Shown here: piece after piece, positions 34,045 through 39,576 of the stretch
Position numbering within the stretch: the first letter of the stretch is position 1
How the letters are laid out: every line of letters begins with the position of its first letter
Source of the DNA: the human T2T-CHM13v2.0 reference genome, Homo sapiens
Reading direction: 5' to 3' (one strand)
Length of the DNA stretch: 64,000 nucleotides
Assembly (NCBI RefSeq): GCF_009914755.1
Contig: NC_060934.1
Notes under the pieces: model-generated
Told to the model about the DNA's origin: nothing
The model's database searches: none
What the model saw: the letters and a program-made list of their open reading frames with translations, nothing else
Translations under genes and position numbers: made by a program

Positions 34045-34522
34045 TGAACTTTCTAATACATCACTGTGAGCCTACAGTAGAGAACTGAGTGAATTTTCCT
34101 TGTGATTTTGTGTGTACATGCACTATCCACAGAAGGAGAATAGAGAGGAAGATTGCTCAGCCCTCACATCAGTTTTATGGATGGCACAGGCAGGAACAAA
34201 GAGTCTTTCTGGGACCATGATCAGCTAAACACAGAAAGCAGGTGGGAGAGGAGCTGCTTCATTGAAATGAGGGTGAGGGTTTCAGGGCTCCTACCACCCA
34301 GCTTCTTACTTCTCTCATGGCCTCTTTGCAGAACTTCAGACCTTCTAGAGCCCTAATAAGTAGAAAAAGTCCCCCATCTAATCCAGCTCCTCAGTGTGAG
34401 GCTGCAGGAGGAGCCTAAGGGGAGGAGAGCATGACCTGCCCCATCACACACCTGACAAGGGCCACACTAGGCTCCACCCTATTTCCCCAGGAAGATTGAC
34501 CTTTACAAAGCTGCTCTTCCTC

Positions 34523-37500
34523 GAATGGAACCAAGTTGGAAAACACTCTGCAGAATATTATCCAGGAGAACTTCCCCAACCTAGCAAGGCAGGCCAACAT
34601 TCAAATTCAGGAAATACAGAGAACTCCACAAAGATACTCCTTGAGAAGAGCAACTCCAAGACACATAATTGTGAGATTCACCAAGGTTGAAACGAAGGAA
34701 AAAATGTTAAGGGCAGCCAGACAGAAAGGTCGGGTTACCCACAAAGGGAAGCCCATCAGACTAACAGCTGATCTCTCAGCAGAAACTCTACAAGCCGGAA
34801 GAGAGTGGGGGCCAATATTCAACGTTCTTAGAGAAAAGAATTTTCAATCCAGAATTTCGTATCCAGCCAAACTAAGCTTCATAAGTGAAGAAGAAATAAA
34901 ATACTTTACAGACAAGCAAATGCTGAGAGATTTTGTCACCACCAGGACTGCCCTACAAGAGCTCCTGAAGGAAGCACTAAACATGGAAAGGAACAACCGG
35001 TACCAGCCACTGCAAAAACATGCCAAATTGTAAAGACCATTGATGCTAGGAAGAAACTGCATCAACTAATGAGCAAAATAACCAGCTAACATCATAATGA
35101 CAGGATCAAATTCACGCATAACAATATTAACCTTAAATGTAAATGGGCTAAATGCTCCAAATAGAAGACACAGACTGGCAAATTGGATAAAGAGTCAAGA
35201 CCCATCAGTGTGCTGTATTCAGGAAACCCATCTCACGTGCAGAGACACACATAGGCTCAGAATAAAGGGATGGAGGAAGATCTACCAAGCAAATGGAAAA
35301 CAAAAAAAGGCAGGGGTTGCAATCCTAGTCTCTGATAAAACAGACTTTAAACCAACAAAGATCAAAAGAGACAAAGAAGGCCATTAGATAATAGTAAAGG
35401 GATCAATTCAACAAGAAGAGCTAACTATCCTAAATATATATGCACCCAATACAGGAGCACCCAGATTCATAAAGCAAGTCCTTAGAGACCTACAAAGAGA
35501 CTTAGATTCCCACACAATAACAATGGGAGACTTTAACACCCCACTGTCAACATTAGACAGATCAACAAGACAGAAAGTTAACAAGGATATCCAGGAATTG
35601 AACTCAGCTCTGCACCAAGCGGACCTAATAGACATCTACAGAACTCTCCACCCCAAATCAACAGAATATACATTCTTCTCAGCACCACACGGCACCTATT
35701 CCAAAACTGACCACATAGTTGGAAGTAAAGCACTCCTCAGCAAATGTAAAAGAACAGAAATTATAACAAACTGCCTCTCAGACCACAGTGCAATCAAACT
35801 AGAACTCAGGAATAAGAAACTCACTCAAAACCACTGAACTACATGGAAACTGAACAACCTACTCCTGAATGACTACTGGGTACATAACGAAATGAAGGCA
35901 GAAATAAAGATGTTCTTTGAAACCAATGAAAATAAAGACACAACATACCAGAATCTCTGGGGCACATTTAAAGCAGTGTGTAGAGGGAAATGTATAGCAA
36001 TAAATGCCCACAGGAGAAAGCAGGAAAGATCTAAAATTGACACCCTAACATCCCAATTAAAAGAACTAGAGAAGCAAGAGCAAACACATTCAAAAGCTAG
36101 CAGAAGGCAAGAAATAACTAAGATCAGAGCAGAACTGAAGGAGATAGAGACACAAAAAACCCTTCAAAAAATCAATGAATCCAGGAGCTGGTTTTTTGAA
36201 AACATCAACAAAATTGATAGACCACTAGCAAGACTAATAAAGAAGAAAAGAGAGAAGAATCAAATAGATGCAATAAAAAATGATAAAGGGGATATCACCA
36301 CCGATCCCACAGAAATACGAACTACCATCAGAGAATACTATAAACACCTCTGCGCAAATAAACTAGAAAATCTAGAAGAAATGGATAAATTCCTGGACAC
36401 ATACACCCTCCCAAGACTAAACTAGGAAGAAGTTGAATCTCTGAATAGACCAATAACAGGATCTGAAATTGAGGCAATAATTAATAGCTTACCAACCAAA
36501 AAAAGTCCAGGACCAGACGGATTCACAGCCGAATTCTACCAGAGGTACAAGGAGGAGCTGGTACCATACCTTCTGAAACTATTCCAATCAATAGGAAAAG
36601 AGGGAATCCTCCCTAACTCATTTTATGAGGCCAGCATCATCCTGATACCAAAGCCTGGCAGAGACACAACAAAAAAAGAGAATTTTAGACCAATATCCCT
36701 GATGAACATCGATGCAAAAATCCTCAATAAAATACTGGCAAACCGAATCCAGCAGCACATCAAAAAGCTTATCCACCATGATCAAGTGGGCTTCATCCCT
36801 GGGATGCAAGGGTGGTTCAACATACACAAATCAATAACATAATCCAGCATATAAACAGAACCAAAGACAAAAGCCACATGATTATCTCAATAGATGCAGA
36901 AAAGGCCTTTGACAAAATTCAACAACCCTTCATGCTAAAAACTCTCAATAAATTAGGTATTGATAGGACATATGTCAAAATAATAAGAGCTATTTATGAC
37001 AAACCCACAGACAATATCATACTGAATGGGCAAAAATTGGAAGCATTCCCTTTCAAAACTGGCACAAGACAGGGATGCCCTCTCTCACCACTCCTATTCA
37101 ACACAGTGTTGGAAGTTCTGGCCAGGGCAATCAGGCAGGAGAAAGAAATAAAGGGTATTCAATTGGGAAAAGAGGAAGTCAAATTGTCCCTGTTTGCAGA
37201 TGACATGATTGTATATTTAGAAAACCCCATCGTCTCAGCCCAAAATCTCCTTAAGCTGATAAGCAACTTCAGCAAAGTCTCAGGATACAAAATCAATGTG
37301 CAAAAATCACAAGCATTCTTATACACCAATAACAGACAAACAGAGAGCCAAATCATGAGTGAACTCCCATTCACAATTGCTTCAAAGAGAATAAAATACC
37401 TAGGAATCCAACTCACAAGGGATGTGGAGGAACTCTTCAAGGAGAACTACAAACCACTGCTCAATGAAATAAAAGAGGAAACAAACAAATGCAAGAACAT

Positions 37501-39145
37501 TCCATGCTCATGGATAGGAAGAATCAATATTGTGAAAATGGTCATACTGCCCGAGGTAATTTATAGATTCAATGCCACCCCATCAAGCTACCAATGACTT
37601 TCTTCACAGAATTGGAAAAAAATTCTTTAAAGTTCATATGGATCCAAAAAAGAGCCCACATTCCCAAGTCAATCCTAAGCCAAAAGAACAAAGCTGGAGG
37701 CATCACGCTACCTGACTTCAAACTATACTACAAGGCTACAGTAACCAAAACAGCATGGTACTGGTACCAAAACAGAGATATAGACCAATGGAACAGAACA
37801 GAGCCCTCAGAAATAATACCACACATCTACAACTATCTGATCTTTGACAAACCTGACAAAAACAAGAAATGGGGAAAGGATTCCCTATTTAACAAATGGT
37901 GCTGGGAAAACTGGCTAGCCATATGTAGAAAGCTGAAACTGGATCCCTTCCTTACACCTTATACAAAAATTAATTCAAGGTGGATTAAAGACTTAAATGT
38001 TAGACCTAAAACCATAAAAACCCTAGAAGAAAACCTAGGCAATACCATTCAGGACAAAGGCATGGGCAAGGACTTCATGGCTAAAGCACCAAAAGCAATG
38101 GCAACAAAAAGTCAAAATTGACAAATAGGATCTAAGTAAACTAAAGAGCTTCTGCACAGCAAAAGAAACTACCATCAGAGTGATCTACAGAATGGGAGAA
38201 AATTTTTGCAATCTATTCATCTGACAAAGGGCTCATATCCAGAATCTACAAAGAACTCAAACACATTTACAAGAAAAAACAAACAACCCCATCAACAAGT
38301 GGGCAAAGGATATGAACAGACACTTCTCAAAAGAAGATATTTATGCAGCCAACAGACACATGAAAAGATGCTCATCATCACTGGCCATCAGAGAAATGCA
38401 AATCAAAACCACAATGAGATATCATCTCACACCAGTTAGAATGGCGATCATTAAAAAGTCAGGAAACAACAGGTGCTGGAGAGGATGTGGAGAAATAGGA
38501 ACACTTTTACACTGTTGGTGGGACTGTAAACTAGTTCAACCATTGTGGAAGTCAGTGTGGCGATTCCTCAGGGATCTAGAACTAGAAATACCATTTGACC
38601 CAGTCATCCCATTACTGGGTATATACCCAAAGGAATATAAATTATGCTGCTATAAAGACACATGCACACGTATGTTTATTGCAGCACCATTCACAATAGC
38701 AAAGACTTGGAACCAACCCAAATGTCCAACAATGATAGACTGGATTAAGAAAATGTGGCACATATACACCATGGAATACTATGCAGTCATAAAAAAGGAT
38801 GAGTTCATGTCCTTTGTAGGGACATGGATGAAGCTGGAAACCATCATTCTCAGCAAACTATCATAAGGACAAAAAACCAAACACCACATGTTCTCACTCA
38901 CAGGTGGAAATTGAACAATGAGAACACTTGGACACAGAAAGGGGAACATCACACACTGGGGCCTGTTGTGGGGTGGGGGGAGTGGGGAGGGATAGCATTA
39001 GGAGATATACCTAATGTAAATGACAAGTTAATGGGTGCAGCACACCAACATGGCACATGTATACACATGTAACAAACCTGCAACTTGTGCACACGTAACC
39101 TAGAACTGAAAGTATAATAAAATATATATATATAAATTAAAAAAA
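34523..39145 (+). mobile_element. 5'-truncated L1PA5-type LINE-1 (starts mid-ORF1; ORF2 multiply disrupted)
   Basis: ORF1/ORF2 fragments in the ORF track; 3' UTR GAGAACACTTGGACAC, AATGTAAATGAC, CCTAGAAC; AATAAA at 39116. Confidence 0.93.
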
Positions 39146-39550
39146 GATGTTAAGGAGATGAGCAAATCCTTAACCAATGTAAGTATGCTTTATGCTCCTC
39201 TAGCAATGTATAAGGTGTATTTAACCTCACGATTCTTAAAGTTTTATTTTATTTTTAAGTGATAAATGATAATTGTATATATTAATGGGGTACAATATTA
39301 CATTTTGATGCATGTATACATTGTGAATTGATCATATCAGGGTAATTAGCATATCCATCATCTCAAATATTTGTCATTTCTTTGTAGTGAGAACATTTAA
39401 AATCCTCTCTTTTTTAGCTGTTTTGAAATATACATAATAATAGCCAATCTGAGAGTTGTGATGTGATGTCTCATTGTGGTTTTTATTTGCATTTCTCTGA
39501 TGATTAAATTTGTTGAGTATTTAAAAAATAAAAAAATAAATAAATAAAAA
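39146..39550 (+). other. L1 3'-transduced segment (unique DNA plus antisense L1MA piece) and second poly(A) tail
   Basis: ATTAAA at 39503-39508, A-tail 39523-39550, TSD at 39551-39568 matching 34505-34522. Confidence 0.85.
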
Positions 39551-39576
39551 ACACAGCTGCTTTTCCTCTTTTCAAG

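What the first reader, a model, noticed from the sequence alone, without database searches (positions are those of the whole stretch)
34505..39568. L1PA5 insertion carrying a ~380-bp 3' transduction
Seen: no TSD follows the L1's own tail (39121-39145). Instead, the 5' flank ACAAAGCTGCTCTTCCTC (34505-34522, preceded by TTT) reappears as ACACAGCTGCTTTTCCTC (39551-39568, 16/18) after a second A-rich tail (39523-39550). That tail starts 14 nt after ATTAAA (39503-39508) and abruptly cuts an antisense L1M fragment. Established: this is the signature of read-through 3' transduction. Inference: 39146-39522 is a copy of the DNA flanking the source L1PA5 elsewhere in the genome.
Basis: partly seen in the sequence, partly recalled or inferred. 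Interest (0 to 1): 0.7.

Follow-up and report, generated by a model that had tools for sequence, protein, structure and literature searches.

The report
L1 insertion carrying a CYP2C18-like flank
An old, broken L1 jumping gene in an intron of HECTD2-AS1 dragged along about 385 bases copied from a CYP2C18-like exon 1 and intron 3.4 Mb away, an ordinary case of L1 3' transduction whose source L1 is no longer present at the donor site.

Summary
A 5'-truncated L1 (34523-39145) is followed by about 385 bp of non-L1 DNA and a second A-rich tail. One 18-bp target-site duplication brackets the whole (16 of 18 matching; 0 of 5000 shuffles reach 16).

I found the donor of the extra DNA in the same assembly, at chr10:95785179-95785552 (96% identity). 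The copy starts 33 nt before the end of a CYP2C18-like exon 1 and runs into intron 1. It ends no more than 22 nt after an intronic ATTAAA, while the donor sequence continues past that point.

The copy shares a 629-bp deletion with this donor and not with the paralogue taken to be CYP2C18. The L1 body and the extra segment are equally diverged, which fits one event.

The rest of exon 1 lies there instead. The donor breakpoint does read TT|A, an L1-endonuclease-type site that only 32 of 586 nearby positions show.

Best reading, at about 0.75: a 3' transduction from a source L1 that was never fixed. Two rivals remain open: a separate retrocopy inserted into the L1 tail, and a template-switch chimera. 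This is an ordinary kind of event and of low interest.

The parts
34505..34522 (+). 5' copy of the target-site duplication (ACAAAGCTGCTCTTCCTC), preceded by TTT, which gives an L1-endonuclease-type site TTT|A
34523..39138 (+). 5'-truncated L1PA-type element. It starts inside the ORF1 RBD-like domain, and ORF2 is broken into several frames. Its own AATAAA is at 39116. The element-encoded end includes a (TA)n stretch and AAATT.
   Evidence: Pfam hits to Transposase_22, Tnp_22_dsRBD, Exo_endo_phos and RVT_1; ORF list; the 29 nearest copies fetched are 93-95% identical; AAATT(T)+A(n) end in 5 of 23 relatives
39139..39145 (+). A7 run between the L1 end and the extra segment (the L1's poly(A) remnant). 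The last A is ambiguous with the donor's A.
39146..39178 (+). Copy of the last 33 nt of a CYP2C18-like exon 1, in sense orientation
   Evidence: Alignment to L002 and L003; the translations of the parental exons hit CYP2C19, 2C9 and 2C8 chains
39179..39530 (+). Copy of the start of intron 1 (GTAAGT at 39179). It includes antisense L1M-type repeat from about 39233. The junction of a 629-bp deletion shared with donor L002 lies at 39434/39435.
39503..39508 (+). ATTAAA polyadenylation signal used by the read-through RNA. It is conserved in both parental loci.
39531..39550 (+). Non-templated A-rich tail (AAAAAATAAATAAATAAAAA)
   Evidence: The parents diverge from the window here
39551..39568 (+). 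3' copy of the target-site duplication (ACACAGCTGCTTTTCCTC), 16 of 18 identical to the 5' copy

Best explanation
This is a single L1 retrotransposition event with a 3' transduction. The proposed sequence of events is as follows.

1. A full-length L1PA element once sat, in sense orientation, inside an orphan duplicate of the CYP2C18 promoter, exon 1 and start of intron 1. This donor (L002) is at chr10:95.785 Mb in this assembly. The inferred insertion site is GCAGTT|AGATG (inferred).
2. Its transcript ran past the L1's own AATAAA and short A tail, through the last 33 nt of the exon and about 350 nt of intron.
3. The RNA was cleaved no more than 22 nt after the first canonical signal, ATTAAA, inside an antisense L1M.
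4. The RNA was reverse-transcribed at a TTT|A nick 3.37 Mb away, in what is now an intron of HECTD2-AS1. It was 5'-truncated within ORF1, and the insertion made an 18-bp target-site duplication.
5. The source L1 never became fixed, so the donor site in this assembly is the empty allele.

Shown here: the composite structure, the duplication, the donor locus, the polyadenylation site and the equal divergence of the two parts. Inferred: the former presence of the source L1.
For: 1. One duplication brackets L1 plus extra DNA, 16 of 18 matching. No shuffle reaches 16 (0 of 5000), and there is no other match of 14 of 18 or better in the window. Nothing better than 10 of 18 follows the L1's own tail.

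2. The extra DNA has only two close relatives in the assembly, out of 40 scored of 5776 candidates. They are L002 (96%, query 1-374) and L003 (96%, query 1-289). The 95-nt unique part gives 6 hits of 6 candidates, with 98% identity to L002 and 94% to L003.

3. The window copy shares with L002, but not L003, a 629-bp deletion in the L1M. Both parents continue past the point where the copy turns into A-rich tail, after ATTAAA. This means an RNA copy of the L002 lineage.

4. The two parts are the same age.
- L1 body: 30 of 1440 private non-CpG differences (2.08%) against 29 relatives, whose own values are 1.5-3.5%.
- Extra segment: 6 of 383 window-private and 11 of 383 L002-private differences.
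- The copy-to-donor distance is therefore 4.4%, about twice 2.08%.

5. The donor breakpoint reads TT|A(GATG). Only 32 of 586 positions (5.5%) between exon 1 and the poly(A) site would read TT+A(n). That is expected if the breakpoint is a former L1 insertion site. It is not expected for random 5' truncation or template switching.

6. About 10% of L1 retrotransposition events carry 3' transduced sequence (passage read in PMC2768975). Non-reference, polymorphic source elements are documented (PMC9311842, Table 4 passage).

7. The length of about 385 bp lies within the reported range of 7-997 nt (PMC9311842 abstract).
Against: - No L1 lies at the donor breakpoint in this assembly. Exon 1 is uninterrupted in both L002 and L003.
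- The nearest same-strand L1PA is 4.8 kb upstream and lacks its 3' end.
- No sibling insertions share the transduced sequence.
- The transduced piece starts inside an exon, in sense orientation. That is a rare place for a random source insertion, and it is what a cellular-RNA origin would predict.
- Donor and copy lie only 3.37 Mb apart on one chromosome. By my arithmetic (2 x 3.37 Mb of 3117 Mb) that is about 0.2% under random integration. No model considered here explains it.
- An all-A duplication from a second insertion into the L1 tail would be invisible, so a two-event history cannot be excluded from sequence alone.
Confidence: 0.75

Rival explanations
1. Two successive events. The L1 inserted first with the 18-bp duplication directly after its tail. 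Later, a 5'-truncated retrocopy of an intron-terminated CYP2C18-like RNA, mobilised in trans by L1 proteins, inserted into the L1's A tail. Its own duplication consists only of A residues and so cannot be seen.
For: - The junction reads AAATT|AAAAAAA|GATG. TT|AAAA is an ideal L1-endonuclease site, and an insertion there would automatically have the L1's orientation.
- The extra piece starts in an exon, in sense orientation, and ends at a poly(A) signal, as an RNA from the donor's own promoter would.
- The donor has no L1.
Against: - AAATT(T) followed by an A run is an inherited end in related L1 copies (5 of 23). Its presence is therefore not a sign of a later nick.
- The donor breakpoint falls on a TT|A site that only 5.5% of positions show. 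Random 5' truncation does not predict this.
- The extra piece is as diverged as the L1 body, so the second event would have had to follow the first closely.
- Retrocopies of unspliced, intron-terminated RNAs landing in an L1 tail should be far rarer than transductions. This is my estimate, not a tool result.
Confidence: 0.1
2. A single-event template-switch chimera. L1 reverse transcriptase started on the poly(A) of a prematurely polyadenylated CYP2C18-like pre-mRNA. After about 385 nt it jumped onto the poly(A) end of an L1 RNA and copied 4.6 kb of it.
For: - The two parts are joined directly, in the same orientation, under one duplication. The 3' part is a 5'-truncated RNA copy. These are features (ii), (iv) and (v) of chimeric retrogenes as listed in PMC2104539 (Background section read).
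- The donor has no L1.
- The two parts have equal ages.
Against: - Feature (i) is not met. The 5' part should be a full-length RNA copy, but this L1 is 5'-truncated in ORF1.
- In described chimeras L1 is usually the 3' part, that is the first template. Here the order is reversed, and it needs both trans-mobilisation and a jump.
- The TT|A site at the donor breakpoint is unexplained.
- The 2025 survey of L1 chimeras looked only at sequences 5' of L1 (outline of 10.1101/2025.02.02.635956), so it offers no precedent.
Confidence: 0.06
3. The extra 385 bp was at this locus before the L1 arrived, and the flanking repeat is a chance match.
For: None found.
Against: - The repeat is far beyond chance.
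- The segment is an RNA-type copy that ends in a tail after ATTAAA, while its 10-kb parental context lies elsewhere.
- No duplication flanks the L1 alone.
Confidence: 0.01

Closest known systems
L1 3' transduction (read-through of the weak L1 poly(A) signal; the primary papers of Moran 1999, Goodier 2000, Pickeral 2000 and Szak 2003 are recalled, not seen)
   Same: L1 3' end with its own signal and A run, then unique DNA, then a second tail after a downstream poly(A) signal. One duplication surrounds everything. The donor locus is found elsewhere and continues past the cleavage site. The length is within the published range.
   Different: The donor site in this assembly carries no L1, so the source must be inferred as lost. 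The transduced DNA begins inside a CYP2C18-like exon. No siblings were found.
Chimeric retrogenes formed by L1 RT template switching (Buzdin/Gogvadze type, such as U6-L1)
   Same: Two RNA-derived parts are fused in the same orientation under one pair of direct repeats (for the definition).
   Different: The 5' part here is a truncated L1 rather than a full-length cellular RNA. The order of the parts is the reverse of the common type. The donor breakpoint looks like an endonuclease site.
Processed retrocopy nested in the A tail of an older element
   Same: A poly(A)-terminated RNA copy sits directly after a TT|AAAA site in an L1 tail.
   Different: No separate duplication can be seen. The divergence is the same as that of the host L1. 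The RNA would be unspliced and intron-terminated.

Membership tests
L1 3' transduction | L1 3' end with its own poly(A) signal and A run, followed directly by non-L1 sequence in the same orientation | tested here: met
   AATAAA at 39116, A7 at 39139-39145, then CYP2C18-like sequence
L1 3' transduction | The extra sequence ends in a second poly(A) tail 10-30 nt after a downstream poly(A) signal | tested here: met
   ATTAAA at 39503-39508. The templated sequence ends no later than 39530, while the parents continue.
L1 3' transduction | The target-site duplication flanks L1 plus extra sequence, not the L1 alone | tested here: met
   16 of 18 at 34505 and 39551; 0 of 5000 shuffles reach 16; the best other match is 10 of 18
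L1 3' transduction | The donor locus of the extra sequence exists elsewhere and extends beyond the cleavage site | tested here: met
   L002 at chr10:95785179-95785552, 96% identity, shared 629-bp deletion
L1 3' transduction | A source L1 lies immediately upstream of the donor sequence, on the same strand | tested here: not met
   Exon 1 is uninterrupted upstream in L002 and L003. The nearest plus-strand L1PA is 4.8 kb away and 3'-truncated. An ancestral or polymorphic filled allele cannot be tested here.
L1 3' transduction | The donor breakpoint is an L1-endonuclease-type site (TT|A on the element's strand) | tested here: met
   GCAGTT|A|GATG. 32 of 586 local positions (5.5%) would qualify by chance.
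Template-switch chimeric retrogene (features as listed in PMC2104539) | The 5' part is a full-length copy of a cellular RNA | tested here: not met
   The L1 starts at position 20 of the 98-position ORF1 RBD-like profile, so it is 5'-truncated
Template-switch chimeric retrogene (features as listed in PMC2104539) | The 3' part is a 5'-truncated RNA copy; both parts are joined directly in the same orientation and flanked by short direct repeats | tested here: met
L1PA5 subfamily | Diagnostic subfamily positions, or a RepeatMasker/Dfam assignment | not testable with these tools
   No repeat library is held. The only indirect evidence is 2.08% private non-CpG divergence and 93-95% identity to the 29 nearest copies fetched.

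The most novel reading that the evidence does not exclude
The element is a reverse-order L1 chimera made in one event. Reverse transcription began on a prematurely polyadenylated, unspliced RNA from the orphan CYP2C18-like exon 1, made only 3.4 Mb away on the same chromosome. It then jumped onto the poly(A) end of an L1 RNA. Such L1-first chimeras would be systematically misread as 3' transductions with 'lost' sources. The closeness of donor and target would hint that locally retained nuclear RNAs can serve as first templates.
Probability: 0.06. Interest if true: 0.5.

Novelty: new member of a known kind. Interest (0 to 1): 0.22.

Why it matters
This is a clean worked example of L1 3' transduction in which the donor can be named: an orphan CYP2C18-like promoter and exon 1 duplicate in the CYP2C cluster. 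The event can also be dated as contemporaneous with the L1 itself.

It moved a 33-nt exon fragment with its splice donor into an intron of HECTD2-AS1, on the opposite strand to that RNA. Nothing suggests a function.

The general lesson is a caution. An empty donor site does not by itself separate a lost source L1 from a template-switch chimera or a nested retrocopy. The endonuclease-type motif at the donor breakpoint is a usable discriminator.

Tried and rejected
- Source L1 beside the donor. I fetched 40 kb around L002 and 32 kb around L003 and compared them with the window's L1. Several L1PA copies at 91-94% identity lie nearby. None abuts the breakpoint, and the closest plus-strand one lacks its 3' end.
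- Spliced read-through from an upstream L1. Rejected because the junction keeps the whole L1 tail. The nearest AG (gcAG|tta) would give ...TTAGATG, which is not the observed sequence.
- Sibling transductions. None among the 40 scored hits for the 377-bp query, or among 6 of 6 hits for the unique 95 nt. The chrX hit is a genomic CYP2C exon-1-like fragment with its own upstream exon sequence, not a retrocopy.
- Age contrast between the L1 body and the extra segment, as a test for two events. No contrast was found: 2.08% against 1.6%. By my arithmetic, Poisson P(6 or fewer | 8.0) is about 0.3.
- CYP2C93 (PMC3035658, passages). It is a macaque gene at the far end of the cluster and unrelated to L002.
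- Literature on the donor exon and on this insertion:
  - 'CYP2C18 exon 1-like' gave 0 papers.
  - 'CYP2C58P' gave 0 papers.
  - CYP2C18 + LINE-1 + transduction gave 2 papers, both unrelated judging by their titles and abstract openings.
  - The Warner/Finta/Zaphiropoulos 2001 report of a CYP2C18 exon-1-like sequence spliced to CYP2C9 is recalled only, not seen.
- Papers not held: Szak 2003, Pickeral 2000 and Buzdin 2003.
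Full report
**Observation.** The window holds a plus-strand L1 from 34523 to 39145.
- Its open frames hit the L1 ORF1 RBD-like and dsRBD-like domains, the endonuclease family and RVT_1.
- It begins inside ORF1, and ORF2 is split into several frames. It is therefore a 5'-truncated, dead copy.
- After its AATAAA (39116) and a short tail comes non-L1 DNA, then a second A-rich tail, then ACACAGCTGCTTTTCCTC (39551-39568).
- That sequence matches ACAAAGCTGCTCTTCCTC (34505-34522), directly before the L1, at 16 of 18 positions.
- In 5000 shuffles of 39121-39800 the best match never reached 16 (maximum 15, twice). 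No other 18-mer in the 64-kb window matches at 14 or better.
- The 5' flank finds nothing better than 10 of 18 after the L1's own tail.
- The target reads TTT|A.

**Where the extra DNA comes from.** I searched the window's own assembly with 39146-39522.
- Apart from the window itself there are two close matches, both on chromosome 10. L002 is 95785179-95785552 (96%, query 1-374). L003 is 95563080-95563366 (96%, query 1-289).
- They are followed by 37 repeat copies at 81-86% that cover only query positions of about 84-301 (40 scored of 5776 candidates).
- In both loci the match starts in the middle of an open frame, [27 protein letters not shown]....
- That frame's best solved relatives are cytochromes P450 2C19, 2C9 and 2C8.
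- The frame ends at a GTAAGT splice donor.
- The window segment is therefore a copy of the last 33 nt of a CYP2C exon 1 (39146-39178) plus the start of intron 1 (from 39179).
- The unique 95 nt gave 6 hits of 6 candidates: the window, L002 (98%), L003 (94%), two shorter exon-1 hits at 95.642 and 95.818 Mb, and a chrX fragment.
- From recall, L003's peptide is the CYP2C18 N-terminus, and the order of the hits fits CYP2C18, CYP2C19, [L002], CYP2C9.
- L002 is part of a colinear duplicate of about 10 kb. It covers the upstream region, exon 1 and about 2.5 kb of intron 1 of L003, and it is interrupted by about 9 kb of L1PA insertions upstream.

**Which paralogue is the donor.** L002 lacks 629 bp of the antisense L1M that L003 has. 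The window copy has the same junction, at 39434/39435. The donor is therefore the L002 lineage, after that deletion.

**How the copy ends.** Both parents continue ...GATGATTAAATTTGTTGAGTA.TTAAAAAATATAT... past the point where the window copy becomes A-rich tail. The copy was therefore made from an RNA cleaved no more than 22 nt after ATTAAA (39503-39508). This is the first canonical signal downstream of the L1 tail.

**The prediction that fails.** No L1 precedes the donor sequence. Upstream of it is the rest of exon 1, uninterrupted, in both L002 and L003. I fetched 40 kb around L002 and compared it with the window's L1. L1PA copies lie nearby, but the closest plus-strand one ends 4.8 kb upstream and lacks its last ~130 bp and its tail. 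No sibling insertions were found.

**Three models fit an empty donor.**
- H1: transduction from a source L1 that sat at the breakpoint on an allele that was never fixed.
- H2: a template-switch chimera. Reverse transcription starts on an intron-terminated CYP2C18-like RNA and jumps to an L1 RNA.
- H3: two events. A retrocopy of that RNA inserts into the L1's tail at AAATT|AAAAAAA, and its all-A duplication is invisible.

**Tests between the models.**
1. *Ages.*
   - Against 29 related L1 copies, the window's L1 3' 1.5 kb has 30 of 1440 private non-CpG differences (2.08%). The relatives' own values are 1.5-3.5%.
   - In the extra segment, polarised with the two parents, 6 of 383 differences are private to the window, 11 to L002 and 13 to L003.
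   - The copy-to-donor distance of 4.4% is about twice 2.08%, which fits a single event. It also forces any second event to follow the first closely.
   - At a recalled neutral rate of about 1e-9 per site per year, this is roughly 20 million years.
2. *Tail.* AAATT or AAATTT followed by an A run recurs at the 3' end of 5 of 23 related copies, and of one L1 near L002. The 'perfect nick site' at the junction is therefore inherited from the element and is no evidence for H3. The true A run is 7 nt.
3. *Donor breakpoint.* It reads GCAGTT|A|GATG, that is TT|A. Only 32 of 586 positions (5.5%) between the exon start and the poly(A) site would look like this. An L1-endonuclease insertion site predicts it. 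Random truncation or a template jump does not.
4. *Definition of chimeras.* The definition read in PMC2104539 requires a full-length 5' part and usually has L1 as the 3' part. Neither holds here.
5. *Base rates.* About 10% of L1 events carry transductions (PMC2768975, passage). Non-reference sources are documented (PMC9311842, passages).

**Points against H1.**
- The missing source L1.
- The start of the transduced piece inside a sense-strand exon.
- The 3.37-Mb distance between donor and copy, which is about 0.2% by chance on my arithmetic and which no model explains.

**Verdict.** This is an ordinary L1 3' transduction, at about 0.75. Its donor is now identified and its source element is lost. 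H3 stands at about 0.10 and H2 at about 0.06. The subfamily label L1PA5 remains untested.

Noticed in passing
L002 (G000:C10:95783679-95787052) with L011, L014 and L012: An orphan colinear duplicate of about 10 kb, covering the CYP2C18-type upstream region, exon 1 and about 2.5 kb of intron 1. It lies about 33 kb upstream of the next CYP2C exon-1 hit (95817951). Its exon-1 frame is still open (56 codons, 4 residues different from L003). It is split upstream by about 9 kb of L1PA insertions.
   Followed up: partly
L049 1366-1560 (G000:C23:148987656 region): A CYP2C exon-1-like genomic fragment on the X chromosome. It includes exon sequence upstream of the part copied in the window, so it is a DNA-level fragment or pseudogene, not a sibling transduction.
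   Followed up: partly
window 39146 versus G000:C10:95785179: Donor and insertion lie only 3.37 Mb apart on the same chromosome. Under random integration this is about 0.2% (my arithmetic). It was noticed after the fact and is unexplained.
   Followed up: no
L034 (C13:13724315) and L038 (C22:17705579): Two of the related L1 copies share the same flanking sequence after their tails, so they are copies of one insertion carried in a duplicated block.
   Followed up: no
window 39397-39918, minus strand: A mechanical 173-codon open frame (GTG start) runs across the second tail and the 3' duplication. There is no evidence that it is a gene.
   Followed up: no
window 39121-39138: The L1's element-encoded end carries a (TA)5 expansion where related copies have TAATAATA.
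   Followed up: partly
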